The translations under genes and the position numbers were made by a program. DNA of 64,000 nt from Naegleria gruberi (lineage: Eukaryota): assembly GCA_000004985.1 (NCBI GenBank), contig GG738855.1. The stretch is one strand, 5' to 3'. This document shows, in pieces, positions 1,095-61,641 of this stretch. The notes under the pieces were generated by a model that worked only from the letters and a program-made list of their open reading frames with translations, was not told where the DNA came from and searched no databases. The stretch's first letter is position 1. Each line of letters starts with the position of its first letter.

Positions 1095-3117
1095 ATGAAT
1101 ATAAATATAATGGGTTTTCAGGATTATGATATTATTGAAGAGCTAGGATCTGGTTCCTACGGAAAAGTTTTCACTGTTCGGGATCGAAGAACTGGAGAAA
1201 TTTGTGTTCAGAAAATTGTTAGCCTAGATGGAGTTGATGAAAAGGATAGAGAAGAAACATTAAATGAGGTTCGTAGGAGTAATTATAATACAGTGCATTG
1301 ACTCTGAATAGGCTCGTTTAATGAGCCAGTGTGAACATTTCAATATCATTAAATATTTGGACTCTTTCATCGAGAATAACTACCTATGTATTATTATGGA
1401 ATATGCATCTGGAGGGGATCTGACAAAGAAAATTAAAGCACAACAGGGAAAACCATTCAAGGAAGATTTAGTGTGGAACTTTTTGATACAGATATCTCAA
1501 GGGTTGAAATATTTGCATGACAAGAGAATTTTGGTAAGTTTGTAAATTATTACAAATATTAAACTGATCACATATTATAGCACAGAGATCTTAAACCTCA
1601 AAATATATTTCTAGATGCAGAGGATAATATTAAAATTGGAGATATGGGTTTAGGAAGAATACTAGGACCTCAATCCTCTTTCGCCTCATCAAATGTAGGA
1701 ACACCTCTTTATCAAAGCCCTGAGCTGTGTCAGGAAAAGCCTTACAATCATAAGAGTGACATTTGGGCTTTTGGATGTCTTTTATATGAGCTAGCAGCTT
1801 TTTCACCTCCATTCTTAGCAACAAATCAGATAGCTCTAGCAAAGTAAGTCTCTTTGTTATACTAAATATACTTATGTTATAATAGGAAAATTGTTGGTGA
1901 TAGACCAAACAGTCTTCCCAAAATCTATTCTATGGAACTTCAATTTTTAATATTTAAAATGTTAGAAAAGGAGCCAAGTAAGAGACCAGATATAAACCAA
2001 ATATTGAATTATTCGGCTGTAAAGTTGAGAATTCAAAAGGCTAAGCTTAGACACAAGGAGTTAAAATTGAAGGAGCAATTTTTAACTTTGGAAAAACAAT
2101 TGAGAATGGATTATGAGACAAAAATTGATATGCTCGAAAGGAAACTCTCTGATTACAGATACCAGGAGGAGCAAGTGCAAATGGAAAGAGAAAATATTGT
2201 ACGTAAATAATTCTTAACATGGAATCTAATAATTTGTTATCTCACAACAGAGAGAAAGAGCTCAAGAGCTGGATAAGAAAGAGAATGGGCTGAGAGAACT
2301 CGAGGAAAAACTGCTGAGAAAGCAACACCAACTCAATGAGCTCATAAAACATGGGCATGTTATTATTTCAACACCAAATTCTGGGATTGGTCCCACCATC
2401 ACACCAAGCATACCATCGCCATTTACTTCGCCTGTGAAAGAGCACGGGACACCACAGAGAAAGGTCGACAGTAAATATTATAAACCTGAAACAACTAAGG
2501 TAGTACAAGAAAAGTTCAACTCACTCTATAACATGTTCCATGAACAACAACCAAATAATAGTCCTAATGCTCAGAAAGCTCGATCAGCACCATCAACACC
2601 TGTTAAAAAGCGAACCGATGCAGTTCCAAAGACTCCAAGCCCTAAACCTGTTCACAGACCAAAGAGCAATGGCAATGCTCCTCTTGAACACACACCAAAA
2701 CAAAAACGAAAGAATTCCAATCCTCCATCAACACCAAATGTAAACTCTTCCCAGGTGAGTGTTGGATCCTCAGTCCAGTTAGACTCTAAATTTGTTGGTA
2801 AGGTAATGGGTAAAATAATGCAGAAGAAGCAAACTACTGAGACACCACTAGGAAATAAGGGAAGAAAGCTAGGTATGGGAGGTTCTCCAGATGAAGGTTT
2901 GGTTGATAATAGGGTAAAGAAAAAGTTATCATTTGAAGAAAGTGAACCAACCTTATTCAGACCAATGCCAAGAACATCGCCCACATCAAGGCACTTTGAC
3001 TTTAGAATTTCAGAACCCAAAATAGAGATTGAAGAGTTCAATTCAGATGAAGAAAACTCAGAAGAAGACCTGTTCGTTTTAAGGAGGAAACTGAAAAATG
3101 AAGAACTAAACAAATAA
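1095..3117 (+). CDS. NIMA-related (NEK) Ser/Thr protein kinase with C-terminal coiled-coil and S/P/K-rich tail; 5 exons
   Basis: Exons about 1095-1268, 1312-1533, 1581-1843, 1886-2198 and 2251-3117. Donors are GTTCGT/GTAAGT/GTAAGT/GTACGT, acceptors are AG, and frames were checked against the track ORFs. The spliced product reads GSGSYGKV..CVQKI..LNEARLMSQCEHFNIIKYLDSF..IIMEYASGGDL..HDKRILHRDLKPQNIFL..IKIGDMGLGRIL..GTPLYQSPELCQEKPYNHKSDIWAFGCLLYEL, which is a NEK catalytic domain. The initiator could instead be the ATG at 1110. Confidence 0.85.
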
Positions 3118-3118
3118 T

Positions 3119-6100
3119 TTATTCTGTTTGATAATAGATTACAACATTTCTTGTACCACCAGCAGCAAAGAGAGGGAACTTGTCATGGAAGCAGCACGAT
3201 CCAACTTTTTCACCTTCTATATCTTGTAAAATACCTACACACTGGGCAGTTCTGCAATTGAAGATGATAATCAAACCCTTAGACGTTCCAGTGACAAGAT
3301 ATGGAGATATTTCTGCATTTCCAGAAACTCCAATCGCTGTCACATTATCATTTGAAGAATCAGAAAGTTTAGGAATATCCTTCTTATTGTATGTGTGTAA
3401 TCTTGTAGCTGCTTCATTCAAAAAGAACAAACCACAAAGTTGAGCATTTTCAGTAACATTCTCTTTGTGAATAGCAACCAAAAATATTCCTTGGTTTGCT
3501 CCAGTGGTTACAGCCTTAATTACAGAAGAGTAAATAACAGAGTATGGATTTAAAGCTATTTTTTGGAGTAATTTTCCACTACTCATTCTCCAAATGCCAA
3601 TATATGAATTAGTACTTCCAATTACAAAATCTTTCAATTCAGGGACAAACTGAAGGTTATTGATGGCTTCCTTTCCATTAAGGGTTTGGAATGTGACAAC
3701 CTTGACCCTACTCGTAAAATCACTTGTGAGCATGTATTTTAAAAGTTCTCCATTATTGGTTGCAACCATCAAAGTAGAGTCGTAAACTTCCATACAAGAT
3801 ATTGGTGATCTTACATCATCCAAGCTTAATAGGGGTTTTTTCTCTTGACCCAACTGACTTCTGATTGATGACCCATCGATATCAAAGAATCTGATATGAT
3901 AGGAGAGAGTTCCATCAGCTTGGGCAGGATTTTCATCATCCAGTATGGACATGGTCATGGTTATTGATGGTTCAAATGAGGAAGAGGCAATAATCAACAT
4001 TTCTCCATCAGGTGTAAACTTGGAAGAATAAAACTCCTCATTTTCTTCATTTTCTAAACCAAAAAGTTCTGTTTGAATCCATTCTGATCCTGTTAGCTCA
4101 ATTAAGGATACTTGAGTCTTTGTACAAATAGTTAATCTGGGATCACCTACTGGTGAAAATATCATGTTCAAAACTGGACCCTTAATCTTGATCCTACTAT
4201 AGGACTTGAGAGGATGTTGCTTGTCTATTTTTTCGATTGGATGTCTAGGTAGAGAATTTTGTGATAGCACAGGTTGAGATCGCATAGGAGAGGCAAAACT
4301 GGCACGTGGAGGACTGGAAAGTGGAGGTGTGCTTAGATTACTTTTGTCTGCATCATTTTCAGATGTAACAGGTTTTGTGGCACTGGATGAAGCCAGCACA
4401 GGTGAGGAAGGTATTTCTTCCTCATCTTCTGATTCAAAATTCAAACTAAAATTGACAGCGATTGTTGGCTCAAGCTCATATTTAGGTTTAACATCCAAAG
4501 TTTCACCCTTGTTCACTATTGGAGGAGATCCTAAATTAGCTTTTGTTAGAATAGGTGAAAAGTTGATTGGTGGTGAACTGAAATCTTTGATTTCAAAAGT
4601 TTGAGAAGGTGTTCTTGGTGACAATTCATCATCTGTTTCATCATCTTGAACTTGCATAAATGGATTCTTCTTTTTGCTTGGAGAAATATCGCCTGGATTC
4701 AAAACTATCTTTACAGCAGAGTATTGTGTCTCTTCCACCTCTTCAAGAATTACATCAGATTTAGGAGTGGTATATGACAATATTCTACTGGTATTATGTG
4801 GTGGTGTAGACATTGGTGGTGGATTATTATCTTCTTCCATTTCATCATCACTAACATTTGCTCCTTGAGATTCAAGTGGATCGTAATAGACTGTTGGAGG
4901 AATTACAATTTGTGGTGATTGTGCCTTTTCCTTTGGCTTAATTGGAGTTGGGGTTGGTGGAACTTCTTCATCATCAATCATTGTGTCAGCTTGTTTCACA
5001 TTTCCTTCTTTTGTAGTTTCTTCTTTAGCTGGTGGTGTAATATCCAAGTTCATGGATGGAAGGGTTTGAGGTGTTTCATCGTCTTCATCTAATTTATCGG
5101 TAGATGTCTTTTCCAGAGAAATATTTGGTTTCTGAACTGTTGGTGGAGGAGGTGATGGTGCTGTTTCAGTTTTGGTTTCTAATTTCTCTTCCAGATTCGG
5201 AAGCTCGGTTGGTGTACTCAATGATGGTGAATTCAAGTCAGCACTGTCATTGGTATTGAAATTAATGTCAACAGTAGGCATAATGAGAACAGGTTTGTTT
5301 GGTGAGGGTTTTGTGGTCGGGTTAGGACTACTTTGTTTGGCTTCTATGATTGTTATTGTGGTTGTTGCAGAACTGTTGGTGGGAACTGGTTGATGATTGG
5401 CTGGTTCCAAATCCTCCATAAATAATAAATCATCACCTGGAGGCAAAGAATCAGGTGTACTACTTGGAGAATCGAGTGTTGGTGATTTTGGAAGATCAGT
5501 ATTAATTCTGAGGGGAGATTTTGGCTTTTCGATTGGTTCACAAGTTTTTGTTGTGGATTCAATTGGTTTCACTTGTTCCACAATTGTTTCAACCTCAGCT
5601 TGTACAATTTGTTCACTTGTGATGGGTGGTTTCTTCTCAATGGTTTCAATGATGGCTGGTTCAGTAAAAGATGTGTCCTTTGGAGGAGAGTTGAAAGATG
5701 TTTCAACCTTTTCCTCTTGTGTACTTTTCTTGTTATCCAGTGGTTGAATTTCTTCTCCCTCATCCAGCATTGGATCCTTTTTGACTACTTCTTCTGTTGC
5801 TATAGTTATTTCTATTAATGGCTGTACTGTAGTTTCAGAAGGTTTTTCTATGATATCTACAATCATTTTGTCTTCATTTTGCTTAATGGTTTCCTCGATA
5901 GTACTACTAGTTGGAGGAGTAGGTGGTGGAAGAATATTTTGAGATGGTAATGAGGCTGTCAAGGATGAACTAGTACTACTGGACTTTTGGGTACTGCTCT
6001 CTTGGGTTGACCTCTTGGATTGAGATGGAAGGGATGGTACTGCAAATTCTTCGTTTCGTCTCTCGATTGGCATTTTTCGATTTTGCAAAGGAGAAATAAC

Positions 6101-12978: not shown

Positions 12979-14121
12979 ATGGAAAGTGGTCTCTCTTTAA
13001 ACCTTGTAGATTTCAATTCCTTGGTTGTTTCCTCGACAAATAGTGTTGGAGACTCTGCAGTGAATACGAGGAGAATGTTGGCAAAATCGTGGACTTCACT
13101 CCTGTTGGGTGGTGATGAAGGAGAAGACGAAGTCTATTCGTCATCGCCTCCGACCATTCATCACCATCTGCAAAATACTCATTTAAATTCGGATCCTAAT
13201 GATTTAGTTGTTTTGCATGATTTTAATGACAATTCAAGTATTATTACAGATGTCATCAGTAATGTTGATAATGGCAGTAGCAATCACGTGATTGATTCAG
13301 CAGTAATTCAAAAAGAACGATTAATCAAAAAACAATTGGAATGTAAAAAATTGAGAATGCTCTTCTCACCTCCAGAAATGCTAACAGAGGATGGTGAAAT
13401 TGAAGAGTCTTACTTTAGACCAGATCCTTCCAGAATTTTTAATATGGATTGTCTGAAAACACTGACCTGGAATAAGACAGACGAAGAATTGTTGAGAAGA
13501 GGTATTAATGAGTTTGGAAATGATTGGACAGCCATAATTTTGAAATACCTTCCGAATTGGGACGCAAAAGAACTGCAAGAAAAGTGTAAACAATTGAAAA
13601 TCTCAACAAAAAAGGCTCGCACAACTCCTGAACCAAAAATCAATACTAGTGGTAAACTATCCACTTCTTCATCAACAAAGAGGAAGAAAAAAACAAAGAA
13701 AAAACCAGAAAGTGAAGACAAAGAATTTGAAGAAAATGAAACAGATGAAGAATCATTTGAAATTATTTCAGAAGAGGAGAAGAAGCCAAAGAGAAAAACA
13801 TCTAATAAGAAGAATGCCACAACCACTGTAAAATCTAAAACAATATCTAAAACCAATAAGAAATCTAACAGCAAACAAAATGGAAAATCAACCACTAAAA
13901 AGGTGGCTGTAACCAATTCTGAAACTTCTGAAGAGGAGGAAGAATTCAATGAAGATGATTTTATTTCAGAAGAAGAAGAGGAGGATGAAATGAGTGATGA
14001 AGAACCTCCAAAAAGTAGCAAAAGAGGTGGCAGAGCTAGGCCAAAGAGGCAAGTACAAAGGTATTGCTATCATGAAAATTCATCTGGTGAAGATGAAATG
14101 CTCGACCAGTACATTGATTAA
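12979..14121 (+). CDS. SANT/Myb-like domain protein with K/E/S-rich acidic-basic tail
   Basis: ATG at 12979. Myb/SANT-like segment LTWNKTDEELLRRGINEFGNDWTAIILKYLPNWDAKELQEKCKQL. Downstream are KKKTKKK and EEEEE tracts. The stop TAA overlaps the ATG of the next ORF (TAATG). Confidence 0.55.
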   Translation: MESGLSLNLVDFNSLVVSSTNSVGDSAVNTRRMLAKSWTSLLLGGDEGEDEVYSSSPPTIHHHLQNTHLNSDPNDLVVLHDFNDNSSIITDVISNVDNGSSNHVIDSAVIQKERLIKKQLECKKLRMLFSPPEMLTEDGEIEESYFRPDPSRIFNMDCLKTLTWNKTDEELLRRGINEFGNDWTAIILKYLPNWDAKELQEKCKQLKISTKKARTTPEPKINTSGKLSTSSSTKRKKKTKKKPESEDKEFEENETDEESFEIISEEEKKPKRKTSNKKNATTTVKSKTISKTNKKSNSKQNGKSTTKKVAVTNSETSEEEEEFNEDDFISEEEEEDEMSDEEPPKSSKRGGRARPKRQVQRYCYHENSSGEDEMLDQYID

Positions 14122-15116
14122 TGTATCAACACTCTAAAAAAATGTCACCTCATGAATTGCTAGAAGATTATCAATTTTGGATAGAAAAATTAGTGATTGC
14201 ATATTGGATACTCGGAAGTGTCTTGTATTGTCTCCGATTTTTCAACAATTTTTTCCATTCATCATTTCAATATGGAAGATTTTCATCAACGAGTACGGAT
14301 AACTCTCCTCACACCAATCAACCAAGGAATGAATTTCTTGACAAAATTTCACACTTTATTATGAAACCTATTGTGACGGAAAGTTTTCATTGGAGAAGCA
14401 TATACTCAGTCGGATTGGTTGTGAATACTTTTGGAATTTATGTGTTTCACTCTGTGAATGGATTAGAGTGGTCAACAATTTTGATTCTTGTACTGTATGA
14501 AGCTCATCTCCTCAAGAGATGCATTGAAGTCTATTGGTTACAACCATGGGTCAATCCTCCAAGATTTGTTGGATCATTTCTATTCTTGAGTGGTGTTTCG
14601 TATTATGTCATCTCTCCAATTACATTCTTATTGGGATGCCTTAAGCGTACAGATTTGCAGAGGTATCCGCTGAATATTTTAGGAGCTTTCTTCTTTATCT
14701 ATTGCTGGTATGTAATTTGTTAAATATTTAATCACAATTAATTATTTGAATGGTCACTAGCTATCACCAATACCAATGTCACAAGATTCTCTATTCGCTT
14801 GCAAGAGAAAAAAACAAGAATCCAAGCATTGGGTATCAGATTCCAAATGGTGACTTATTTGATTTGTTATATTGTCCACATTACTCAACAGAAATCGGAA
14901 TGTACCTTTCACTCAATATTATCCTATGTTTTTCATACATTCCCTCAATGTAAGTTAATACTCCTTAGAAAATCATCTTAGAGTAATAGATTGTGTTTTG
15001 CATTCACTTCACTTAACCTTGGTTATCACTCAATTGAAACATATCGTTGGTATCAAACAAAATTCCCAAAGAAACTCCCATCTAAGCGCAAAGTACTCAT
15101 TCCTTACCTTTTCTAA
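14121..15116 (+). CDS. Steroid 5-alpha-reductase / polyprenol reductase family membrane protein (SRD5A3/TECR-like), 3 exons
   Basis: Exons about 14121-14707, 14761-14949 and 14990-15116 (GTATGT...CACTAG; GTAAGT...AATAG). The spliced product contains ..HQYQCHKILYSLAREKNKNPSIGYQIPNGDLFDLLYCPHYSTEIGMY.. and the C-terminal ..HSIETYRWYQTKFPKKLPSKRKVLIPYLF*. These match the family signatures HQYKCH, IP.GG.F..VS.P.Y..E and WY..KF..YP..R.A.IPF. The true start may be the internal Met at about 14142 rather than the ATG overlapping the upstream stop. Confidence 0.7.
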
Positions 15117-15372
15117 AAAAGGGGAATTTTCTTTGGCCAAACCGTTTGTTATAATGCTGTCTGACTCTGAGCAAATAAACAAACCGGCATTCCACCTCTT
15201 CTATAAGTTATTATTCTTATAAAAAAATTCACCATCCAACCGCTCGCTTACACTGTCGCCTCAATAGACTGCACAAAAACATTAAGCAGCAAACGTAAAC
15301 ATTAAAATTGGATTTTGATAACAATAATAACAATAATAATAATACATCCTATTCAGCTGCTCGACAGGAATT

Positions 15373-17631
15373 ATGTTCCGTCCCTCATCCTTCATAAGAT
15401 CAACAGGATCTCGACAACCCTTGGGAGATTTTTCATCTTCTTCTAATAACTCGACACCAAACACCCCTCCTCCACCTACATCCACTAATGAAACTAATAG
15501 TAATAATAATATTGGAAAATCATTTTTGAGAGGTTCTTCATTTGTTGGAGGATTTACTCAGTCCTTCAACCTTCCTATTAAGAGAACAACAGAAGTAGTG
15601 GAAACAGATAACAATGTCCGAAGAAATAGCGAGGCCACACAACGTCTTCCTTCACCCTCAATAGCAGAAACCATTGAAGTTGATAAAAACCTAGTATCCA
15701 GCATCAAATCATGGGCATTTGAGGGTTCAATTAAGTTACCAGAATGTTTGAATCCAAATTTTAAACCTAAAATACAACCAGAAGAAGAATCAGAAATGAA
15801 AAGATCGGAAAGTGTAGTAATTGATGAAAAAAAGTCTTTTAATGAGCTTTTCGACTCTTTATTCTCATCATCTTCCTTAGAGGAAACAGCAGGAGAAAAA
15901 TCTCCCTCAACAACAGATGATTCTGATGTTGCCTCTCCCCCTAATACACCACCTTCATCAACTAATAGTGTAGGAACACCTCCAAAGGGAGGTTTAAAAT
16001 CTCTTTTATTCGGAAAAAAGTATAAACCAACAACAACAGCAACAGTAAGCAATATTCCTCTGGTTAAGGAAACACCTAAGCCTCTAAATCCATATAGAAT
16101 TGCCCATGTTCCTCTTCGAGATGACCAATTTGGCAGAACAGGGTTTAAATTGGAATTAACAGATTTTCAAATTATAGAAACTTTCAGAGATGTATCTAGA
16201 TATAATAGAAAAAAAGATATTGACGAGCAACGAAGAATGAGAAACCAACTGATGGAAAATTCAAAAAACCAAAATAATGATACTTCAGATTCTGTTCTGG
16301 AAAGAGAGTATGAATACTCGTGCTATAGTTCCCAATCTGATTCCCCTGTTGTGGATAAGAATTCAGAGGAAATATTGAGAAGGAAAAAGTTTATAGAGAA
16401 GGAAATAATGGAAACAGAGATTGGATATGTGAGAAATCTTGTACATTTATTTGAGTATTATTTATTGCCAATTAGGAAAGTTGGTATTCTATCAAAAGAA
16501 AACTATCAGATAGTATTCAAAAACATTAATATGATTCTAGCAATTAATACTACATTGCTTACAGAATTCGAAAAAGCATACTATTCACTAAAACCAAAAG
16601 AGTCGATTGCGTCGATATTCAGTTCTAGAATTCCAGCAATTAAGCTCTATGTAGGATATGTAAATAGTTACCCGAGTGCAATCAAGTGTTTGAATGAAAT
16701 CTTGTCAAAAGATAATAATTTTGATTCATGGGAGAAATCTCAACGAAATACTAAAGTGAACGGAGTTCATTTGTTTCCACTGAGGAGTTTTATTGCGTTA
16801 CCTCTGCAAAGAATTACTAAGTACTACCTCTTATTCAATGATTTGTTGGAAACATTGGATGGTGATGACTATTACTCTCTTAGCGCAGTTATTGATGAAA
16901 TGAAATCCCTGTCCGCTTATTGTATCGAGAAGAAGAATGAATCAGATAATTTGGAAACTCTGTTAGAGTTCCAGAAAAAGCTGAAACTAAAAGAACTGGT
17001 AAGAGGAGATAGAACCTTCCTTAGGGAAGGAGTTGGAAGTGTAGATAATGGTGACACCATAGTTGAGTTATATCTATTCTCAGACCTTTTAGTTTATGTC
17101 ATGTCAAATGAATCGAAACGAGTAGTTAAGGAGGTACCTCTCAAAGCTGGTAATCTTATTGAACTAACCAAAATCTCATCCACAACTGTGATGCTTTCCT
17201 TTCAGAATGAAAAGAGTTATATCACATTTGATTCTGAAGAAGAGCAAAAAGTGTGGTCATCTGCAATCAATGAACAACTCAATTCCAGCTTAACAAAGGC
17301 AAGAATAAGAAGAAGAGGAAATTCAAGCACTCCACTAGAGGAAAAGATTATTTTTGCAGGCTACCTCACAAAATCCAAAGGCTTGAGCAAGAAAACTAGA
17401 TTCCATACATTATCTTCCATGGGAGGTGTAAAATACTATGACAAGCCCAATGGTGACATGAAAGGTTCCTATCAAATCAAGGGAAGTAAGATATTCAAAA
17501 AATCACCTACAACTTTCTTACTCACTGATAGTGATGGTAAATCCTTTTACTATAGCACAGAAAACGACAGTATTGCCTCAACTTGGATCAATCGATTCAT
17601 TGGTTTGGGAGCAGTCATTATGAAACAATAA
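15373..17631 (+). CDS. Rho guanine-nucleotide exchange factor with DH and PH domains
   Basis: ATG at 15373. S/N/P-rich N-terminal third. DH domain (..RRKKFIEKEIMETEIGYVRNLVHLFEYYLLP.. LRSFIALPLQRITKYYLLFNDLLE) is followed by a PH-like C-terminus (..IFAGYLTKSKGLSKKTRFHTLSSMGGVKYYDK..). Intronless. Confidence 0.75.
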   Translation: MFRPSSFIRSTGSRQPLGDFSSSSNNSTPNTPPPPTSTNETNSNNNIGKSFLRGSSFVGGFTQSFNLPIKRTTEVVETDNNVRRNSEATQRLPSPSIAETIEVDKNLVSSIKSWAFEGSIKLPECLNPNFKPKIQPEEESEMKRSESVVIDEKKSFNELFDSLFSSSSLEETAGEKSPSTTDDSDVASPPNTPPSSTNSVGTPPKGGLKSLLFGKKYKPTTTATVSNIPLVKETPKPLNPYRIAHVPLRDDQFGRTGFKLELTDFQIIETFRDVSRYNRKKDIDEQRRMRNQLMENSKNQNNDTSDSVLEREYEYSCYSSQSDSPVVDKNSEEILRRKKFIEKEIMETEIGYVRNLVHLFEYYLLPIRKVGILSKENYQIVFKNINMILAINTTLLTEFEKAYYSLKPKESIASIFSSRIPAIKLYVGYVNSYPSAIKCLNEILSKDNNFDSWEKSQRNTKVNGVHLFPLRSFIALPLQRITKYYLLFNDLLETLDGDDYYSLSAVIDEMKSLSAYCIEKKNESDNLETLLEFQKKLKLKELVRGDRTFLREGVGSVDNGDTIVELYLFSDLLVYVMSNESKRVVKEVPLKAGNLIELTKISSTTVMLSFQNEKSYITFDSEEEQKVWSSAINEQLNSSLTKARIRRRGNSSTPLEEKIIFAGYLTKSKGLSKKTRFHTLSSMGGVKYYDKPNGDMKGSYQIKGSKIFKKSPTTFLLTDSDGKSFYYSTENDSIASTWINRFIGLGAVIMKQ

Positions 17632-17670
17632 ACTTGTTCAACAATTTATTGGTAAAATCCAATCAAAAAA

Positions 17671-19938
17671 ATGCTTCAAAAATCAACAAGAAGAATTTCA
17701 TCACTTTATGCTGGTTGTGGTCGTATTTCATCAACACCATCATCATCGGGAGTTGTACTCAACACTAATAGTTCAATCAAAATAATTAACCATCAATACA
17801 GATGTTATAATAATCATTTGGCAAAATTAAATCGTCTATCGGAATTATCAAATAATAACAAGAAACAATTTAAAAATCATCGTGATAGACAATATCAACC
17901 AATGGATAACATTGAAACACCAAAGGAAGTAAAGAATGATGTAACTACAGAATCCTATACTAAAATATTGAAAAAGTTCTTCTTAAAGGTTCACCCTGAC
18001 TTTTTCCAACAAGATCCACCAAAACAACAACAAAACAAGGAGTCCTTCTCAAAATTGAACGAACTTTTAAATTGGACTAACGAATATACCCAATTAACAC
18101 TTGATAATAAGAATTTGAATGAAGAGGAAATAGCTGACCTGGAAAAGAGATTGAATAGACTTGGTCCTATTCCAAGCGTTGATGAATCATTTGTTTTCTA
18201 TGTTAAGGAAACTGGAAGACAAAAATCTGAACCATTTAGAATTGAAGTTTTGTTTTCTTTACCAAAGAAGGTTCAATTCAATGGAAAATTAAAGAGTAGA
18301 TTGATTTTAACTCAACGTTTGGAAGAATTAGTAACTTCACTTTTGGAAAAATCAAAAATCATAACTGCTGAGGAAGCTAAAGCAAGAAGAGACATTGCTT
18401 TGGAACAATACAGAGAAATGGAAGAGTCCGTGGGTTCAAAGGGTAAGAAGACCTATAAATCACTGAAAGAAGAGTTACGTATGGCTCTCCAAAATAATTT
18501 ACAAGGAGCAGTCAACCTTGAAAAATTAAGAAGAGGTGAAGAAGATGATGAAGAATGGTGGTGGGATAAAGACTTGCCATCCATTGAACACTTGGTTACA
18601 CACGGCATGCTCTTCTTCTCTAAGAATATTACAGCAGAACAAACCATCAAAGCTATGAATCAATTGAAGAATGGTCTTGGTGAGATGAGATATTATGAAT
18701 GGAGTGATATTCCATTAATGATTACAGAAAAAACTGGCAAGTATGCTGTAAATGATCCTGTTGATGGGTTCATTTGCATTCCTTATGACTTTACTCCATT
18801 CGATTTTGTCAAGGAAATCATTACCAACGAAAAGAACATGACACTCCTCGTTGAAAAACGTGAATTGACAAGAAAAAAGGCCGAAGCTATTCAAAACATT
18901 AGAGAAAAACTTATTGAAGAAGTTGGTTTCTCTGATTTAACCATTTCACCAGAATTGACCTCAGAAGAACTCTATACATTTATTGAAAACTTTGAAAAGA
19001 GATACTTAAGTAATGACAAGATGAAATTGTTACTGAAAGACCTCTGTATCATCATTGATAACAAGTATTCAGCAAGTCCAGATGGATACATTTCAATTCA
19101 TTGGAACTTTATGCACAATGGAAAGGACAATATGTTCGAATTTTTGAAAGATTTAGGAGCTCAAAAAATCAAGAATATCAAAGATATGGGAAGAACTCTC
19201 AGCAATCTTAAGAGAGCATGTGTTTCACTCGGTGAAGAACTCATTGATAAACTTAAATGTAAAGAACTCAATTTGACAACCTATGCCGATTTGAACGAAT
19301 CCAATATGAAACGGTATCAAACTCTCCCAGTTACCCACGAATATATGAAACGATTGAGAGAATGTTGCCTCTTCTTGGAACGTTATGATTGGAGCACACA
19401 TACTTTCTATTTGGTCAATACTTTGGATTTACCTAAAGGTTTCAAACTTCCACTCAAACAAGTTCCTCATGTCAAGACAGAGGCCGATGTTAAGAGTTTA
19501 ATGAGAAGAATGACAATATATGGTGATACTATCATTGATATGGGCGCCAGAGCAGTCTATATTCCTGTAAACTTTACTGAAAATCAATTGTTCGAAACAG
19601 TCAACAAATATTGGAAGATGATTGAAAAACCTCAATTGCAATTGGATGGTGATGATTTTACAGATGTTGTAGATCCTCAAGGATTCCAACAATATAGAAA
19701 TTTGGCCTCTGAACTCGTCAAACAAGCTGAGTTTATGCTGACAAAGAAGAGAGCAGAAAGATATCAACAATTGGCTGAATTCCTCAACAGTCTTGAAGAT
19801 CAACAATTGTATGGTAAGGGTGCCAATAGTATTATGGAAGCAGCACTAGATAGACAAGAAGATGAAAGATATATCAATCTGTATCGTACTTGGTTCAGAA
19901 TTAGAGATATTCCATTAGATGTTTTTGAAACTCAATAA
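17671..19938 (+). CDS. Hypothetical protein with mitochondrial-presequence-like N-terminus and a J-domain-like HPD segment
   Basis: ATG at 17671, only 39 bp after the RhoGEF stop on the same strand. N-terminus MLQKSTRRISSLYAGCGRISS. Segment ..YTKILKKFFLKVHPDFFQQD..FSKLNELL has an HPD tripeptide in a J-like context. No confident family assignment. Confidence 0.5.
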   Translation: MLQKSTRRISSLYAGCGRISSTPSSSGVVLNTNSSIKIINHQYRCYNNHLAKLNRLSELSNNNKKQFKNHRDRQYQPMDNIETPKEVKNDVTTESYTKILKKFFLKVHPDFFQQDPPKQQQNKESFSKLNELLNWTNEYTQLTLDNKNLNEEEIADLEKRLNRLGPIPSVDESFVFYVKETGRQKSEPFRIEVLFSLPKKVQFNGKLKSRLILTQRLEELVTSLLEKSKIITAEEAKARRDIALEQYREMEESVGSKGKKTYKSLKEELRMALQNNLQGAVNLEKLRRGEEDDEEWWWDKDLPSIEHLVTHGMLFFSKNITAEQTIKAMNQLKNGLGEMRYYEWSDIPLMITEKTGKYAVNDPVDGFICIPYDFTPFDFVKEIITNEKNMTLLVEKRELTRKKAEAIQNIREKLIEEVGFSDLTISPELTSEELYTFIENFEKRYLSNDKMKLLLKDLCIIIDNKYSASPDGYISIHWNFMHNGKDNMFEFLKDLGAQKIKNIKDMGRTLSNLKRACVSLGEELIDKLKCKELNLTTYADLNESNMKRYQTLPVTHEYMKRLRECCLFLERYDWSTHTFYLVNTLDLPKGFKLPLKQVPHVKTEADVKSLMRRMTIYGDTIIDMGARAVYIPVNFTENQLFETVNKYWKMIEKPQLQLDGDDFTDVVDPQGFQQYRNLASELVKQAEFMLTKKRAERYQQLAEFLNSLEDQQLYGKGANSIMEAALDRQEDERYINLYRTWFRIRDIPLDVFETQ

Positions 19939-19944
19939 ATATAT

Positions 19945-22182
19945 TTATTTCACCAAGTCCAAATAGTTTCCAGAATTATTATCAATATACTTGACCGAAC
20001 AAGACAAACAAGGAAGCAAAATTAAGGGAAGAGGAAGCAAAAACAATGTGGCAAACCCAAAAGAGTACTGTTCTGGATAAGCAATGATAATGGCATGATG
20101 AACGAATAAACAAATCAGACTACACAGTACGGTAATGTACATGTTAATGTACAAACAACGTTTGGTTTTCGAATAGAGAGCTCTACACTCCAAGCAACAC
20201 CACAAAAAGGCAATAAATATCGTTCCAGCAAACAAGAGAAACTCTACTACAAATAGTGGAATCATAGCCACTGCCCAATCAATCTCTGACTCAATAGAAA
20301 ATTGATGAGTAATCATGATTGAACACAGCATACTATAACAAAATGCCACTATTAAAATGATAGAGTTGCAAGTAGAAGTGAGCTTGGAAATCACTGTTCT
20401 GAATTTGATACTTCTCACAATCAACCAAATAAAACAATAAATCAGCATGATTGTCGAAAGTCCACCAAAAACGGCAAACAAATACCATGGAGATTGACTG
20501 AATTGAGAATGAGGCAGACACAAGTACAAATTCCACACAAGTGCAAAAACAATTCCACAAATAGATAAGAGTAACAATCCAATACATGACATGACACTAT
20601 CAAAAAACATCTTCCTCAAACTCAAGATATTCCTCTGTTTTTCCCTTCTCTTACTGTTATTCCTGAGCGCAATTCCAAGTTTCCTCGCTGAAAGTCTCAA
20701 CTCTATTATGGACGATACGAGAATATTAATCATTCCACAATAGAGTGGAAAGAATACCACAATCCAACTCCACTCATTCTCATAATCAATACCAACATTC
20801 ATCAACACTCCCTTAATGGAGAATCCCAATATGAAACATGTGAAAAAGATGTAAACCAAGGGTGCAGAAAATACAAAGTGAATAGAAGATAGCCCCTCAA
20901 TGTCATCCAAAATGAGTTGCTCTGATAGTGGAATAGTTGTGAAACGATCTGATTTTTTCTTTTCAATCTTTCTAAATATGTCAATTCCAAATTGTTTGAC
21001 TTTCTTTTCAGTTTTCAAACATTCACAATAACAATCCTTCTCGAAAATAATATCATTCACTCCCTCAATTGTTACCGATTTGTACTTTTTAAACATAGAT
21101 GGAGGTATCTGAACAGTTGATTCCTCGCTATCACAATCTGATTCATTAATTAGTGTCAATATTTCCATTTCTTCCTCTTCAGAAACATATTCTTCTGAGG
21201 TAAGAGTTTCTGATAATTGATGATCAATCAGAGCAGTTTGGCTAGCACCACTATTATTCGAAAACTCATCCATTTCAATTGAAATTACCTCCTGATGGTT
21301 TCTCTCACCACGTGGAGATTCAATATCCTCAATAAATTCCATAATTTTTGGTGGTGAAAAACATGAATTTTCTATTTTACAAACTCCTCCCAAGTCCAAT
21401 AGAGAAGGTTTCGTATTCACCTTCTTTCCATTCGACATTAAATAATTTAAATGATATTGACCTAAATTTCCACCCTTCTTCCTATTGAAAAAGTAATTCT
21501 TAACTGCCAATATTCTTCTCTTTACAACTTTTTCCTGCACATAAATATCAAAATCCTTAAAGTATAATAATTTCAATTCTCGTATCTTGATTTGATATAA
21601 TCTATTCCAAAAACGTTGTTCTCTATCCAGAAAATTGTACCACATTGAACAAGTATGTGATAAATTGACCATTGTCAAAGAATCATCCAAAAACTCTGAA
21701 ATAATCATCAAAATATCATTTGCAATAATATTCTCAAAATTATGCCATTCAACAGGTTTCAATCGTTGATTATTATTACGATGACGATGATGATGATGAT
21801 TTGCACCATCCAATATAATTGTTCCTTCCTCCTCCGAATCATCATTTCTATTTTCCATTATTATTGTTGTGGTGGTGTTGTGATTGTTGTTGTTATATGA
21901 AGAACTGAGGGCGTGAAAAATTCTGGCAATTGGTGATTTGGTATTGGTTCGTTGTTGATTGTTTATAATGGGAGAAGGTGGCTGGTCAGTTTGGATTGTG
22001 ATATGTTCTTCATCAACATCATGTCTTTCCATCAATAATTGATTACGAGATTGACTAACATGAGTAGTGACAGGTATTGGTGAGTCATCTTCGGAGAGGA
22101 GAGATTCAGAGTTTGCAAAACCAATTTCCGAAGTTTGAATTTGATGGTTGGATTTATTGGTGGATGATCGTTTTCTAGTCAT
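19945..22182 (-). CDS. F-box-like domain protein with long low-complexity N-terminus and C-terminal multipass transmembrane domain (paralogue of 34997..37813)
   Basis: ATG at 22182 (MTRKRSSTNKSNHQIQT). Poly-His/Asn tract. F-box-like segment NDILMIISEFLDDSLTMVNLSHTCSMWYNFLDREQRFW. At least 8 predicted TM helices in the C-terminal 350 aa. Intronless. Confidence 0.55.
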   Translation of the reverse strand: MTRKRSSTNKSNHQIQTSEIGFANSESLLSEDDSPIPVTTHVSQSRNQLLMERHDVDEEHITIQTDQPPSPIINNQQRTNTKSPIARIFHALSSSYNNNNHNTTTTIIMENRNDDSEEEGTIILDGANHHHHRHRNNNQRLKPVEWHNFENIIANDILMIISEFLDDSLTMVNLSHTCSMWYNFLDREQRFWNRLYQIKIRELKLLYFKDFDIYVQEKVVKRRILAVKNYFFNRKKGGNLGQYHLNYLMSNGKKVNTKPSLLDLGGVCKIENSCFSPPKIMEFIEDIESPRGERNHQEVISIEMDEFSNNSGASQTALIDHQLSETLTSEEYVSEEEEMEILTLINESDCDSEESTVQIPPSMFKKYKSVTIEGVNDIIFEKDCYCECLKTEKKVKQFGIDIFRKIEKKKSDRFTTIPLSEQLILDDIEGLSSIHFVFSAPLVYIFFTCFILGFSIKGVLMNVGIDYENEWSWIVVFFPLYCGMINILVSSIIELRLSARKLGIALRNNSKRREKQRNILSLRKMFFDSVMSCIGLLLLSICGIVFALVWNLYLCLPHSQFSQSPWYLFAVFGGLSTIMLIYCFIWLIVRSIKFRTVISKLTSTCNSIILIVAFCYSMLCSIMITHQFSIESEIDWAVAMIPLFVVEFLLFAGTIFIAFLWCCLECRALYSKTKRCLYINMYITVLCSLICLFVHHAIIIAYPEQYSFGFATLFLLPLPLILLPCLSCSVKYIDNNSGNYLDLVK

Positions 22183-29500: not shown

Positions 29501-30029
29501 GGGTGTTCGTTTGGGTAAGAAGTTCAAGGATGTCTATAAGGCAATTACTGGTTTGAAACACGAAGAATTGGTTTCATTCTTGATGAAGAAGGAAATTGTT
29601 TTGTGCGGTGAAACTATCAACAATGAAGACTTGATTGTGGCTAACAAGTTTGTTGGTACTGAAAAGAATTACTTTGCTGATGAATGTGGTACTGGTACTT
29701 TGATTTTGAACACTGACTTGTCAGAAGAATTGAAGGAATTAGGTTTCGTCAGAGAAGCTGGTAGTAAAGTCCAACAAATGAGAAAGGAAGCTCGTCTCAA
29801 GTTTGAAGATAAGGTTGACGTTTTCTTGACTGGTAAGAGTTCTCAAACAGTAGTTGAAGTTTTGAAGAAGCACTCTGCCACTCTTGCTCAACATTTGAAG
29901 GGTATGGACGTCTTCTTTGAAGCTGTTCCTTCTGGAAAGGATTTGATCATTCAACAAGAAATGAATGTTGACAGATTAACTCAAGAAGAAAGCAATGTTG
30001 TTGTTTTCACGTTGATTAGAAAAGAATAA
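26570..30029 (+). CDS. IARS1: Isoleucyl-tRNA synthetase, cytoplasmic (class I), 2 exons
   Basis: Exon 1 starts at ATG 26570 (..[12 protein letters not shown]). A roughly 135-nt intron (GTATGT at 26731, TTTTCAG ending 26867) precedes exon 2, which runs 26868-30029. Exon 2 reads [89 protein letters not shown].., nearly collinear with eukaryotic IARS1. The exact junction phase could not be reconciled by eye (see findings). Confidence 0.9.
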
Positions 30030-30044
30030 ATTTTTGAAAATATT

Positions 30045-31303
30045 TTAATTAATTTCTTTCCTCAGTTTCATCCAATCCATTTCGAAATCCATCTTGTAAC
30101 CCATTCTATTGAAGAGATTGGCAAATTTTGTTCTTAAATAATCATAATCTGGTTTTTCCTCAAATTTCAGTTTCTTTACGTAGAGAAAGTATTGAGTAAA
30201 CTCGATTGGCAAGCCAGCGCATAATTGATTTATGGAAGTGTTCATCTTCTTTTCCATAATCTTTTCATACTTTTTCTGTCTATTGTTTGCCATGAGACCT
30301 TGCCAAGGTAAACTACCATTTAAGAAATATACAAATAAATAACCAATACTTTCCAAATCATCACGACGACTCTGTTCATAACCCAAGTGAGAGTTTGTAC
30401 TTGTATATCTTGCTGTACCTGTAAGAGATTTGTTCTTCCTCATTGGTATATGTTTGAGACCTTCTCCTTTTTCTTCAACCATATATCTCTTAGCGAGACC
30501 AAAGTCTAACATGTAGACGTGGTGACCTTTTTCTTTTCTTCCCATTAGAAAGTTTTCAGGTTTAACTATTAAGGTGTTGGATTAGAGCTAGTTACTAAAA
30601 AAAACTTACCATCTCTATGAATAAAATGTTTGTAATGCAAAAATTCAATTCTTGAAATTAATTGATCTGCCAAAATAAGAACAGTTTTCAATGAAAATCT
30701 TCTACTACAAAAACTAAATAAATCTTCCAAAGATGGGCCAAGACATTCAATTACCATTACATTGAAATCATCTTCTACTCCATACCAATACAATTTTGGA
30801 ATTCCTATCACAGTGGCTTCTTCTTGATGATGTTGTGTAACAGAGAGTACTTCTTGACTCTTTGATGTCCCAATACCTGTACTATTAGGGCTATTTCCAT
30901 GGTTCACATGTAAAGAAGCAGTATCAATAGATGTATTCAAAGCAGCTGAGGCTGCACTTAGAGTTTTCCTGCTTGTAGAGACTGGTAATCCCCAAAGAAT
31001 TTTATAGATTCTACTCTCCGCAAGCAATTGAGGGAATTTACATTTTACTTCTTCAAACTTGATGGCTACTTCTTGATTATTACTTATTATTTTACCTGCG
31101 TGAATAGTACCAAAACTTCCACTTCCTAGTTTTGCTCCTACTAAAAATCGTTTTCCTATTAATCTAGGTATTTGTGGTTTATATGACTGTTGTTGAGCAA
31201 CTTCTATTTGTTGTTGTTGCTGTACTGCTCGAACTCCATTGTCATTCGCTGTCCTATTATTTGGAGAGGAAGGAACGACTTGATTTGAATTTGGTGGATT
31301 CAT
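30045..31303 (-). CDS. Casein kinase I, 2 exons (31303-30610 and 30565-30045), with Q-rich N-terminal extension and a roughly 55-aa low-complexity insert in the N-lobe
   Basis: ATG at 31303. Exon 1 ends ..HYKHFIHRD|G. A 44-nt GTAAGT...TTAATAG intron follows. Exon 2 reads [72 protein letters not shown].., canonical CK1 subdomains VI-XI. Confidence 0.9.
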
Positions 31304-34898: not shown

Positions 34899-34996
34899 CA
34901 ATAAAGAGTCGCACTTAATTTGAAACCCACTTTCTCCTTTGTTACAAAAAAAGATTCCAAACAATATCTTGTTCTCTAATGAAAACCGATTAACTG

Positions 34997-43282: not shown

Positions 43283-43972
43283 ATGTTTGGTGAAGGAAGA
43301 AAAGAAAAAATGTCATCAAGCAACAACACTCATTCATCATCATCTTCCCTTCTCTTGGATATTGAAGACAATTTGAACAAAAAGAAAGAAAATTCAAATC
43401 CTATTAGTAAACCATCCTTTCTCAAATTATCACAGCAACAAGATGGCACAAATGAAGGAATGCCTAGATTTGCTCCTTCCGAGCTCTTGTCCAGACTACA
43501 AAGCTTTTTACCACAAATTAAAGAAGCAAACGAAAAGCTAGAAAGTGGTGAAGTTGAAGGCTTTTCGGATTGTGTTGAAATTATTGAGAATGATGATGAG
43601 GAGGAACAAGATGGTGCTCAACTTCAAGAGGAAAATTATAATGATGAAGAAGAATCCGAACATAAACCCTATGTGGAGATGAATGTAGTATTGGGAGTAT
43701 TAGAACAAAAACAAAAAACAAGCCTAATTACAGATATAGATGGACCAACAGAGGATGAACAAAAATTGGAAGAAAAAGATGAAGTTGTAAATTTGAGAAT
43801 TGGAAAGGATTTTACTCCACAAGAAAGCAAAAATATTGAACAGGATATGGTGGCATATATGAATATTATGAATTCTCTTCTCGGTTCTTCATCAGCATTG
43901 AAAAGAAAACGAGTAGAGGACAACAGTGATAGTGGCAGTAGTGGTGATAGTAGTGACAGTGATCAAGATTAG
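43283..43972 (+). CDS. Acidic hypothetical protein (229 aa) with S-rich ends
   Basis: Track ORF; ATG at 43283 or an internal Met. Conserved-looking segment FAPSELLSRLQSFLPQIKEANEKLESGE is followed by D/E-rich tracts and a C-terminal SSGDSSDSDQD. Its 3' end overlaps the convergent TPR gene by 4 nt. Confidence 0.4.
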   Translation: MFGEGRKEKMSSSNNTHSSSSSLLLDIEDNLNKKKENSNPISKPSFLKLSQQQDGTNEGMPRFAPSELLSRLQSFLPQIKEANEKLESGEVEGFSDCVEIIENDDEEEQDGAQLQEENYNDEEESEHKPYVEMNVVLGVLEQKQKTSLITDIDGPTEDEQKLEEKDEVVNLRIGKDFTPQESKNIEQDMVAYMNIMNSLLGSSSALKRKRVEDNSDSGSSGDSSDSDQD

Positions 43973-46650: not shown

Positions 46651-46788
46651 TACTAACTGAAATAACAGTCTAGGAGCTATCTGTTACTACTCAACAAAAA
46701 TAGTTTCCCGCCAATCAGAGTACAAATTTCAAATCAAAAAAAAATTCAACTTTGGATTTTTAATCTCCATTATACTGCACTGTTGTAT

Positions 46789-52757: not shown

Positions 52758-52784
52758 TTTTTTAAATTAATTTTAAATTATTAA

Positions 52785-58803: not shown

Positions 58804-58899
58804 ATTCGCTGTATTTCCTTCCTCAATAATATCAAATCACAATTAGAATCTACTCTTTTCCCAACAGCAAAGAAATTAAAAAATCAATTCACATAAAAA

Positions 58900-61637: not shown

Positions 61638-61641
61638 AAAT

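What the first reader, a model, noticed from the sequence alone, without database searches (positions are those of the whole stretch)
14119..17673. Extremely tight gene packing, including same-strand gaps of 0-40 bp and convergent stops 1-4 bp apart
Convergent stops are nearly abutting: NEK and the large gene at 3117/3119, LeuRS and Ffh at 61637/61642, and the acidic and TPR genes overlap at 43969-43972. Same-strand neighbours are also very close. The RhoGEF stop at 17631 is followed by the next ATG at 17671 (39 bp). PAP2 to LeuRS is 96 bp, and the GAF gene to the F-box/TM gene is 98 bp. The SANT gene stop overlaps the ATG of the reductase gene (TAATG at 14119-14123). Such spacing leaves no room for conventional promoters or terminators. 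It implies overlapping UTRs, promoters embedded in upstream coding sequence, or some polycistronic or read-through transcription.
Basis: seen in the sequence. Interest (0 to 1): 0.5.

Follow-up and report, generated by a model that had tools for sequence, protein, structure and literature searches.

The report
Tight gene packing in Naegleria gruberi
The window is ordinary nuclear DNA of the amoeba Naegleria gruberi, whose genes sit almost end to end because the poly(A) signal AATAAA often overlaps the stop codon and untranslated regions are tiny; this is real but largely already published.

Summary
The window is a Naegleria gruberi NEG-M nuclear scaffold; several ORF products are identical to NAEGRDRAFT proteins. 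The tight junctions are real. My map has 39 genes in 64 kb, with 13% of the sequence between coding regions.

Two claims need amending. The reductase most likely starts at ATG 14142, which has the A-rich start context, not at the TAATG ATG at 14121. That gives a 20-nt spacer. The "GAF"-to-F-box gap is 113 nt to the ATG, not 98.

Gap size depends on orientation: convergent median 15 nt, tandem 196, divergent 305 (p=0.007). Same-strand runs average 2.05 genes. This fits separate genes with their own 5' regions, not polycistrons.

AATAAA overlaps 9 of 38 stop codons (background 2%), including at most of the tightest junctions. It is about 18-fold depleted in sense gene bodies.

Published direct RNA sequencing of N. 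gruberi (PMC11529991) reports AAUAAA as the signal, a median 3'UTR of 39 nt, and "dual-use" stop codons with 22-nt 3'UTRs. The main explanation is therefore already known.

One less ordinary residue remains. The Myb/SANT-to-reductase pair stays adjacent, 13-89 nt apart, in N. lovaniensis, N. fowleri and Willaertia magna. The other five adjacencies I compared are not conserved.

The parts
12979..14121 (+). Myb/SANT-domain gene, 380 aa, stop TAA at 14119-14121
   Evidence: Product is identical to EFC47207 / NAEGRDRAFT_47217. Weak Pfam Myb_DNA-binding match. Orthologues sit in the same position in N. lovaniensis, N. fowleri and W. magna. There is no AATAAA anywhere in the gene or in its 3' spacer.
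14122..14141 (+). 20-nt spacer TGTATCAACACTCTAAAAAA between the SANT stop and the probable reductase start codon
   Evidence: Start-context scores are -5.2 for ATG 14121 and +7.2 for ATG 14142. Sequence checked.
14142..15116 (+). Polyprenol/steroid 5-alpha-reductase-like gene. Three exons. Introns 14708-14760 and 14950-14989. The alternative ATG is at 14121.
   Evidence: The spliced 300-aa product matches PF02544 at 1.4e-19. Orthologues are aligned in A1. No N. gruberi entry was returned by the homology search.
15174..15179 (+). First sense-strand AATAAA downstream of both the SANT and the reductase stop codons
15373..17631 (+). RhoGEF-PH gene, 752 aa
   Evidence: Pfam RhoGEF 4.8e-32 plus PH.
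17627..17632 (+). AATAAA overlapping the RhoGEF stop codon (dual-use stop and poly(A) signal)
17632..17670 (+). 39-nt spacer between the RhoGEF stop and the TCAIM-like ATG
   Evidence: ATG 17671 scores +6.2; the next in-frame ATG (codon 78) scores -2.3.
17671..19938 (+). DUF4460/DUF4461 (TCAIM-like) gene, 755 aa
   Evidence: Pfam. Orthologues at 55-70% identity. No N. gruberi entry was returned.
19934..19949 (.). Perfect 16-nt palindrome AATAAATATATTTATT that holds both convergent stop codons and an AATAAA for each strand
   Evidence: palindrome test true.
19945..22182 (-). 745-aa multi-pass membrane protein gene, convergent with the TCAIM-like gene (6-nt gap)
3115..3123 (.). NEK/WD40 convergent junction: NEK TAA at 3115-3117, WD40 TAA at 3119-3121(-), WD40 AATAAA at 3118-3123(-)
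30025..30049 (.). IleRS/kinase convergent junction (15-nt gap): IleRS AATAAA at 30025-30030, kinase ATTAAA at 30044-30049(-)
34899..35011 (+). 113-nt tandem spacer between the 990-aa gene and the F-box/TM gene. It contains AATAAA 4 nt after the stop codon.
   Evidence: Both products are identical to database models..
43969..43972 (.). Overlapping stop codons (TTAG) of NOPCHAP1 (+) and the TPR gene (-). Neither has an AATAAA nearby.
52758..52793 (-). Coiled-coil gene to GCV_H tandem junction: AATAAA at 52788-52793 abuts the stop codon at 52785-52787, then a 27-nt spacer to ATG 52757
58799..58899 (+). PAP2-to-LeuRS tandem junction: ATTAAA overlaps the PAP2 stop codon, then a 96-nt spacer
61633..61644 (.). 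LeuRS/Ffh convergent junction: LeuRS AATAAA at 61633-61638, 4-nt gap, Ffh TAA at 61642-61644(-)

Best explanation
This is the normal compact architecture of the Naegleria gruberi nuclear genome. Each gene is most likely its own RNA polymerase II unit.

The 3' side needs almost no space. The poly(A) signal AAUAAA is very often placed on or next to the stop codon, which gives 3'UTRs of about 20-40 nt. Convergent genes can therefore abut. Their mature mRNAs would overlap by only a few tens of nucleotides inside each other's last codons.

The 5' side needs somewhat more space. There is an A-rich leader directly before the ATG and an AT-rich zone confined to about 60 nt upstream. This is why divergent gaps are the longest and tandem gaps intermediate.

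In the few tandem pairs with 20-39 nt between coding regions (SANT-to-reductase, RhoGEF-to-TCAIM-like, coiled-coil-to-GCV_H), the downstream gene's core promoter must lie within the last codons of the upstream gene.

What is shown here: the coordinates, the orientation dependence of the gaps, the enrichment of AATAAA at stop codons, and its depletion in sense gene bodies.

What is taken from a paper: AAUAAA is the functional signal, and the 3'UTR lengths.

What is inferred: where the transcripts of these particular genes start and end.
For: Identity of the window:
- Six of ten ORF products are exact matches to N. gruberi proteins on a 613,270-bp scaffold. A second look-up added three more exact N. 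gruberi matches.

Gaps by orientation:
- Convergent median 15 nt (n=9), tandem 196 (n=20), divergent 305 (n=9), Kruskal-Wallis p=0.0066.
- An earlier version of the gene map, pooled with annotated N. lovaniensis and W. magna loci, gave the same order (medians 61 < 137 < 288 nt, p=0.0002).
- There are 19 strand runs for 39 genes, or 2.05 genes per run. This agrees with about 2 genes per directon reported for Heterolobosea.

Poly(A) signal:
- AATAAA overlaps 9 of 38 stop codons against a 2.0% background (binomial p=5e-8).
- Counting AATAAA or ATTAAA, such stop codons are commoner where the 3' gap is 50 nt or less (12/24 against 10/52, Fisher p=0.013).
- AATAAA occurs 3 times in sense and 49 times in antisense in 55 kb of gene bodies. 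Codon shuffles give 55 +/- 8. So it behaves as a strong signal that is selected against inside transcripts.
- Published nanopore direct RNA sequencing of N. gruberi reports AAUAAA as the signal, a median 3'UTR of 39 nt, 11-13% of stop codons overlapping AAUAAA with a median 3'UTR of 22 nt, and only 1238 AAUAAA in coding sequences (PMC11529991).

Start codons and upstream zone:
- A is at 80-85% at positions -3 to -1 across 65 start codons.
- Runs of eight A/T are enriched about 3-fold only within -60 to -1 of ATGs.

The architecture recurs with different partners:
- The TCAIM-like orthologue in a related Naegleria (L007) has an unrelated upstream gene but a 42-nt gap with TAAATAAA. It also has a 7-nt convergent gap with ATTAAA on the stop codon.
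- Ffh in the same metagenome sample sits 19 nt after a Brr2 helicase gene.
- N. lovaniensis is described as gene dense, with 77% coding sequence (PMC6125883).
Against: - I had no transcript data for these loci, so transcript ends and start sites are inferred.
- 16 of 39 genes have no AATAAA within 100 nt of the stop codon. These include SANT, NEK, NOPCHAP1, TPR and Ffh. They must use other signals or read far into their neighbours, so the dual-use mechanism does not explain every tight junction. The TTAG overlap at 43969-43972 is the clearest exception.
- No defined promoter motif was found, only a compositional signal.
- My gene map is hand-built from ORFs, Pfam matches and a few inferred introns, so some start codons may be wrong.
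Confidence: 0.8

Rival explanations
1. Read-through or bicistronic transcription of selected tandem pairs, above all SANT/Myb-to-reductase. The upstream gene has no AATAAA of its own. Because AATAAA is purged from the sense strand of the downstream gene, polymerase and RNA would continue to the downstream gene's signal. One RNA would then carry both ORFs.
For: - In N. gruberi, N. lovaniensis and N. fowleri there is no AATAAA from the Myb start codon to the reductase stop codon. The first one lies 58, 162 and 128 nt after the reductase stop codon.
- The Myb-to-reductase adjacency is kept in all four species examined, with spacers of 20, 61, 89 and 13 nt. The other five adjacencies of the three anchor genes (reductase, TCAIM-like, Ffh) are not conserved in any comparison.
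- The same 'first AATAAA only after the next gene' pattern holds for PAP2-to-LeuRS, TsaE-to-orf48514, ASC-a-to-thiolase and Pex2/12-to-rhodanese.
Against: - 16 of 39 genes lack a nearby AATAAA whatever their neighbour's orientation, so the absence is not specific to this pair.
- In W. magna an ATTAAA overlaps the Myb stop codon.
- The reductase has its own strong A-rich start context, like free-standing genes.
- A 380-codon upstream ORF with many internal ATGs makes translation of a second ORF by leaky scanning implausible (established knowledge of eukaryotic initiation).
- Gene-order statistics show no polycistron signature.
- The synteny argument rests on only three anchor genes.
Confidence: 0.12
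2. Coupled termination-reinitiation at the UAAUG overlap (14119-14123), as on some viral bicistronic RNAs. The ribosome finishing SANT would restart at the overlapping AUG of the reductase.
For: The pentanucleotide TAATG is present, and the ATG is in frame with the reductase ORF.
Against: - ATG 14121 has a start context like a random ATG. ATG 14142, 21 nt downstream, has the consensus context.
- The overlap is not conserved. Orthologous pairs have spacers of 13, 61 and 89 nt.
- The residues between the two ATGs (MYQHSKK) lie upstream of the conserved block that starts near YWILG.
Confidence: 0.02
3. Kinetoplastid- or nematode-style operons resolved by spliced-leader trans-splicing.
For: - Naegleria belongs to Discoba, the supergroup that also contains the trans-splicing Euglenozoa.
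- Some tandem gaps are as short as intercistronic regions in operons.
Against: - Same-strand runs average 2.05 genes.
- Convergent gaps are the shortest class.
- Heterolobosea are reported to lack the directon expansion seen in Euglenozoa.
- Functional-looking AATAAA signals sit between tandem genes.
- Rfam found no SL RNA or any other RNA family in the window.
- To my knowledge no spliced leader has been reported in Heterolobosea. A literature search found none.
Confidence: 0.02
4. Artefact of gene calling. The tight junctions would be introns or mis-assigned start codons, and the real intergenic distances would be larger.
For: - Two apparent tandem gaps in the window are in fact introns (38560-38605 and 51076-51116).
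- The reductase start codon moves by 21 nt.
Against:
- Their stop codons are fixed by the ORFs.
- In-frame stop codons lie just upstream of the downstream ATGs.
- Several flanking products are identical to database models.
- Orthologues support the N-termini.
- Convergent stop-to-stop distances do not depend on start-codon choice.
Confidence: 0.04

Closest known systems
'Dual-use' stop codon / poly(A) signals and ultrashort 3'UTRs in protists (Giardia, Spironucleus, N. gruberi; PMC11529991)
   Same: - AATAAA overlaps the stop codon at 9 of 38 genes in the window.
- It is strongly avoided inside sense gene bodies.
- The organism is the one in which this was measured by direct RNA sequencing.
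   Different: - Here the frequency is about 24%, against the published genome-wide 11-13%.
- It is concentrated at the tightest junctions.
- One convergent pair shares a perfect 16-nt palindrome that serves both strands.
- As far as I read it, the paper does not discuss neighbour orientation or convergent overlap.
Overlapping transcription in compacted eukaryotic genomes (microsporidia, nucleomorphs). This comparison is from my own knowledge of that literature; I did not read those papers here.
   Same: - Very short intergenic spacers.
- Transcripts are expected to run into neighbouring genes.
- There is a suggestion that such entanglement can preserve gene order.
   Different: - Naegleria is a free-living organism with a gene-rich genome (15,727 predicted proteins), not a reduced parasite or endosymbiont genome.
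- Tightness alone does not preserve gene order here. The TCAIM-like and Ffh neighbours change between species.
Polycistronic transcription units of Euglenozoa
   Same: - Both belong to the supergroup Discoba.
- Some same-strand neighbours are separated by only tens of nucleotides.
   Different: - No long same-strand gene runs.
- Convergent gaps are the shortest class.
- Poly(A) signals lie between tandem genes.
- No spliced leader is known.
Polycistronic mRNAs reported in green algae and fungi. This comparison is from my own knowledge; I did not read those papers here.
   Same: It is a possible analogue for the conserved Myb-to-reductase pair, in which the upstream gene has no poly(A) signal of its own.
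   Different: - No transcript evidence here.
- The upstream ORF is long and rich in ATGs, which argues against leaky scanning.

Membership tests
Dual-use stop codon / poly(A) signal architecture (PMC11529991) | The organism's poly(A) hexamer overlaps the stop codon | tested here: met
   9 of 38 stop codons overlap AATAAA against a 2% background, p=5e-8. Individual sites were checked.
Dual-use stop codon / poly(A) signal architecture (PMC11529991) | The hexamer is the functional signal in this organism and is avoided inside coding sequence | tested here: met
   3 sense against 49 antisense AATAAA in 55 kb of gene bodies; codon-shuffle expectation 55 +/- 8. The paper reports AAUAAA as the top hexamer and 1238 occurrences in coding sequence.
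Dual-use stop codon / poly(A) signal architecture (PMC11529991) | Cleavage about 20 nt after the stop codon for these particular genes | not testable with these tools
   No RNA data for these loci, and no supplementary tables are held. The genome-wide median of 22 nt comes from the paper.
Polycistronic transcription units (Euglenozoa type) | Long runs of same-strand genes | tested here: not met
   2.05 genes per run; the longest run is 7. Heterolobosea are reported at about 2 genes per directon.
Polycistronic transcription units (Euglenozoa type) | Gaps within a unit (tandem) shorter than gaps at strand switches | tested here: not met
   The tandem median of 196 nt exceeds the convergent median of 15 nt.
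Polycistronic transcription units (Euglenozoa type) | Spliced-leader trans-splicing of each cistron | not testable with these tools
   No RNA data. No SL RNA family was found in the window. The literature search found no report for Naegleria.
Coupled termination-reinitiation at UAAUG | Overlapping stop and start codons, with the AUG used for initiation | tested here: not met
   TAATG is present. However, ATG 14121 scores -5.2 and ATG 14142 scores +7.2. The overlap is absent in three orthologous loci.
Overlapping convergent genes | Coding sequences on opposite strands share nucleotides | tested here: met
   The NOPCHAP1 TAG and the TPR TAA share 43970-43971. The TPR product is identical to EFC47331.

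The most novel reading that the evidence does not exclude
The Myb/SANT-to-polyprenol-reductase pair is a conserved, physically inseparable expression unit in vahlkampfiid amoebae (Naegleria and Willaertia).

There are two versions:
- a genuine bicistronic or read-through mRNA that ends at the reductase's AATAAA;
- a reductase promoter locked inside the conserved C-terminal coding region of the Myb gene.

Either way, the two genes have travelled together while the five other adjacencies I compared were reshuffled.
Probability: 0.12. Interest if true: 0.5.

Novelty: already known. Interest (0 to 1): 0.2.

Why it matters
For annotation: gene finders tuned to roomy genomes can miss genes that start 20-40 nt after a neighbour's stop codon. 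The reductase and the TCAIM-like gene returned no N. gruberi protein in the homology searches, which suggests this has happened here.

For biology: the window shows how a free-living eukaryote compresses 3' ends by merging the stop codon with the poly(A) signal. Convergent genes can even share one palindromic signal.

The mechanism itself is already published for this species, so the finding adds little new. The open point is whether the conserved Myb-to-reductase pair, and other tandem pairs that lack an AATAAA between them, produce read-through RNAs.

Tried and rejected
- **Exact-sequence contig look-up for N. gruberi.** It returned nothing for the RhoGEF and SANT products. For the GT18 product it returned only a short metagenome contig. 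I therefore could not obtain the reference gene table or any RNA-derived contigs.
- **Genome paper and supplements.** The 2010 N. gruberi genome paper is not held. The direct-RNA paper has no supplements held, so 3'UTR coordinates for these genes could not be checked.
- **Promoter motif search.** There is no positional enrichment of TATA[AT]A. Only AT-rich runs within 60 nt of the ATG stand out.
- **Stop-overlapping AATAAA doubling as a TATA-like element.** The element sits at -44 and -43 from the TCAIM-like ATG in N. gruberi and in L007. I dropped the idea because other tight tandem pairs have it at -36 or -18.
- **A SANT-reductase fusion through an intron.** By hand I tried one candidate splice, from the GT at 14109 to the AG at 14162-14163. 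It does not join the two reading frames. The stop codon is present in all four species.
- **Junction DNA alignment across four species.** It shows only the coding conservation of the Myb C-terminus.
- **Metagenome scans.** Scans with the reductase alignment and with the Myb alignment found no further loci.
- **Rfam and tRNA scans of the window.** Both found nothing.
- **Orthology of the W. magna RhoGEF next to the Myb gene.** tblastn gave no hit at E below 1e-5 to the N. gruberi RhoGEF.

Full report
**What the window is.** Six of the ten long ORF products I looked up are identical to proteins of Naegleria gruberi strain NEG-M (EFC47205-EFC47336, NAEGRDRAFT_*). All lie on one 613,270-bp scaffold. 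A second look-up added three more exact N. gruberi matches. G+C is about 34%. Genes have short GT..AG introns of 40-53 nt. This is therefore ordinary nuclear DNA of a free-living heterolobosean amoeba. Its relatives are described as gene dense; N. lovaniensis is reported as 77% coding (PMC6125883).

| Junction | Type | Gap |
|---|---|---|
| NEK / WD40 | convergent | 1 nt |
| LeuRS / Ffh | convergent | 4 nt |
| NOPCHAP1 / TPR | convergent | stop codons overlap within TTAG (43969-43972) |
| RhoGEF to next gene | tandem | 39 nt |
| PAP2 to LeuRS | tandem | 96 nt |
| SANT to reductase | tandem | TAATG at 14119-14123 |

- NEK has kinase exons from ATG 1095.
- The reductase is a three-exon gene matching PF02544.
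- LeuRS has two exons.

Two numbers need amending.

1. The reductase has two candidate start codons before its first conserved block. I built a start-context matrix from 63 other start codons in Naegleria and Willaertia. A is at 80-85% at positions -3 to -1. On that matrix ATG 14121 scores like a random ATG (-5.2). ATG 14142 (CTAAAAAAATG) scores +7.2, in the top 0.3% of all ATGs in the window. The likely arrangement is a 20-nt spacer, and the TAATG overlap is probably coincidental.
2. The "98 bp" between the 990-aa gene and the F-box/TM gene is measured to an in-frame TTG. The database-identical model starts at ATG 35012, which gives 113 nt.

The ATG at 17671 is well supported. It scores +6.2, whereas the next in-frame ATG, at codon 78, scores -2.3. 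A 70%-identical orthologue has an N-terminus of matching length.

**The whole-window picture.** My gene map comes from ORFs, Pfam matches, exact database matches and a few inferred introns. It has 39 genes, or one per 1.64 kb. Only 13% of the window lies between coding regions. Gap size depends on orientation (Kruskal-Wallis p=0.0066):

| Orientation | Median gap | n |
|---|---|---|
| Convergent | 15 nt | 9 |
| Tandem | 196 nt | 20 |
| Divergent | 305 nt | 9 |

An earlier version of the map, pooled with annotated loci from N. lovaniensis and Willaertia magna, gave the same order (medians 61 < 137 < 288 nt, p=0.0002). This is what one expects if every gene needs some private 5' space and almost no 3' space. 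It is the opposite of a polycistronic layout, where gaps within a unit are the short ones.

Same-strand runs average 2.05 genes, the value for random orientation. A comparative preprint reports about 2 genes per directon for Heterolobosea and no polycistron signature.

**How the 3' ends fit.** AATAAA overlaps the stop codon at 9 of 38 genes, against 2.0% for stop-like trinucleotides in general (p=5e-8). The sites include:
- RhoGEF (17627-17632);
- IleRS (30025-30030);
- LeuRS (61633-61638);
- the WD40 gene (3118-3123, minus strand);
- both partners of the TCAIM-like/TM745 pair.

The two stop codons and two AATAAA signals of that last pair form a perfect 16-nt palindrome, AATAAATATATTTATT (19934-19949). 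Counting AATAAA or ATTAAA, such stop codons are commoner where the 3' neighbour is within 50 nt (12/24 against 10/52, p=0.013).

AATAAA is almost absent from the sense strand of gene bodies. There are 3 occurrences in 55 kb, against 49 on the antisense strand and 55 +/- 8 after codon shuffling. ATTAAA is not depleted (36 against 36).

All of this matches published nanopore direct RNA sequencing of N. gruberi (PMC11529991):
- AAUAAA is the poly(A) signal.
- The median 3'UTR is 39 nt.
- 11-13% of stop codons overlap AAUAAA, and those genes have a median 3'UTR of 22 nt.
- Only 1238 AAUAAA hexamers occur in coding sequences. AUUAAA also occurs in coding regions, which the authors read as consistent with AAUAAA being the stronger signal.

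Its result explains most of the tight 3' junctions. From those numbers I infer two things. The RhoGEF mRNA should end roughly 20 nt before ATG 17671. Convergent partners such as TCAIM-like/TM745 should overlap by only about 40 nt.

**The 5' side.** I found no discrete promoter motif. Runs of eight A/T are about three times more frequent within 60 nt upstream of ATGs than further upstream. The leader directly before the ATG is A-rich. For the three tandem gaps of 20, 27 and 39 nt, part of the downstream gene's promoter must therefore lie in the upstream gene's last codons. This is inference, not observation.

**The architecture re-forms with new partners.**
- In a related Naegleria from a metagenome (L007), the TCAIM-like gene has an unrelated upstream neighbour. 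It still sits 42 nt after that gene's TAAATAAA and 7 nt from a convergent stop codon.
- Ffh in the same sample starts 19 nt after a Brr2 helicase gene.
- In W. magna there are convergent gaps of 2 and 9 nt and tandem gaps of 13 and 32 nt.

**What the main explanation does not cover.** 16 of 39 genes have no AATAAA within 100 nt of the stop codon. These include SANT, NEK, NOPCHAP1, TPR and Ffh. For tandem pairs of this kind, the next sense AATAAA is the one after the downstream gene. Read-through RNAs are therefore conceivable.

The SANT-to-reductase pair is the most interesting case.
- The adjacency is kept in N. lovaniensis (61 nt), N. fowleri (89 nt, after correcting a truncated model) and W. 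magna (13 nt).
- The other five adjacencies of my three anchor genes (reductase, TCAIM-like, Ffh) are conserved in none of the comparisons.
- In the three Naegleria species no AATAAA occurs between the Myb start codon and the reductase stop codon.

Against co-transcription:
- The lack of a nearby AATAAA is common in this window.
- W. magna has ATTAAA on the Myb stop codon.
- The reductase has its own consensus start context.
- Three anchor genes are a small sample.

I put about 0.12 on a bicistronic or read-through unit. I put about 0.02 each on UAAUG reinitiation and on spliced-leader operons.

**Verdict.** Space is too short for conventional UTRs, and some promoters must be embedded in upstream coding sequence. 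The polycistronic suggestion is not supported. The 3' compression is explained by dual-use stop/poly(A) signals already published for this very species. I rate it already known, with low interest. The small open question is the conserved Myb-to-reductase pair.

Noticed in passing
window 14142-15116 (+) and 17671-19938 (+): Homology searches with the polyprenol-reductase-like gene and with the DUF4460/DUF4461 (TCAIM-like) gene returned orthologues from N. lovaniensis, N. fowleri and Willaertia but no N. gruberi protein. The same tool does return the N. gruberi model for Ffh. Both genes are the downstream member of an ultra-tight tandem pair. They are probably missing from the reference gene set.
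   Followed up: partly
window 12979-15116; L002 8632-11111; L003 8422-10965; L004 9400-10902: The Myb/SANT-to-reductase tandem adjacency is conserved across N. gruberi, N. lovaniensis, N. fowleri and Willaertia magna, with spacers of 20, 61, 89 and 13 nt. The other neighbours of the three anchor genes I compared all differ between species. The annotated N. fowleri reductase model is N-terminally truncated; the likely ATG is at L003 9903.
   Followed up: partly
window 61642-63129 (-) and 58900-61637 (+): The Ffh gene is of bacterial type (TIGR00959 393 bits against SRP54_euk 212 bits). Its best hits outside Heterolobosea are mainly alphaproteobacterial. This matches the mitochondrial Ffh described in PMC8321541. 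It is convergent, 4 nt apart, with a bacterial-type LeuRS that is presumably also mitochondrial. W. magna carries two tandem copies of the Ffh gene (L008).
   Followed up: partly
window, all gene bodies: AATAAA occurs 3 times in sense and 49 times in antisense in 55 kb of gene bodies. Codon shuffles give 55 +/- 8. ATTAAA is not depleted (36 against 36). The three internal sense copies are at 22158(-), 25078(+) and 54705(-).
   Followed up: yes
window 46704-46735 (+) and 54918-54949 (-): A shared element of about 32 nt, TTTCCCGCCAA..AGAGTACAA.TTTCA, has an E2F-like core TTTCCCGCC. One copy lies 12-43 nt upstream of the coiled-coil gene's ATG at 54906. The other lies 54 nt after the Pex2/12 stop codon. 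It may be a regulatory site.
   Followed up: partly
window 38066-39446 (+) and 50478-51865 (-): Two apparent pairs of adjacent ORFs are single genes joined by short introns. One is a 444-aa membrane protein gene with intron 38560-38605. The other is a zf-PARP-like gene with intron 51076-51116; a single in-frame stop codon at 51617-51619 suggests a further small intron.
   Followed up: yes
window 25749-26232 (+) and 26570-26830 (+): There is a small two-exon ORF between orf24995 and IleRS. The first IleRS exon starts at ATG 26570 and is not part of the long ORF. The small ORF had no Pfam or NCBIfam match.
   Followed up: partly
window 19934-19949: A perfect 16-nt palindrome, AATAAATATATTTATT, supplies the stop codon and an AATAAA to both convergent genes.
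   Followed up: yes
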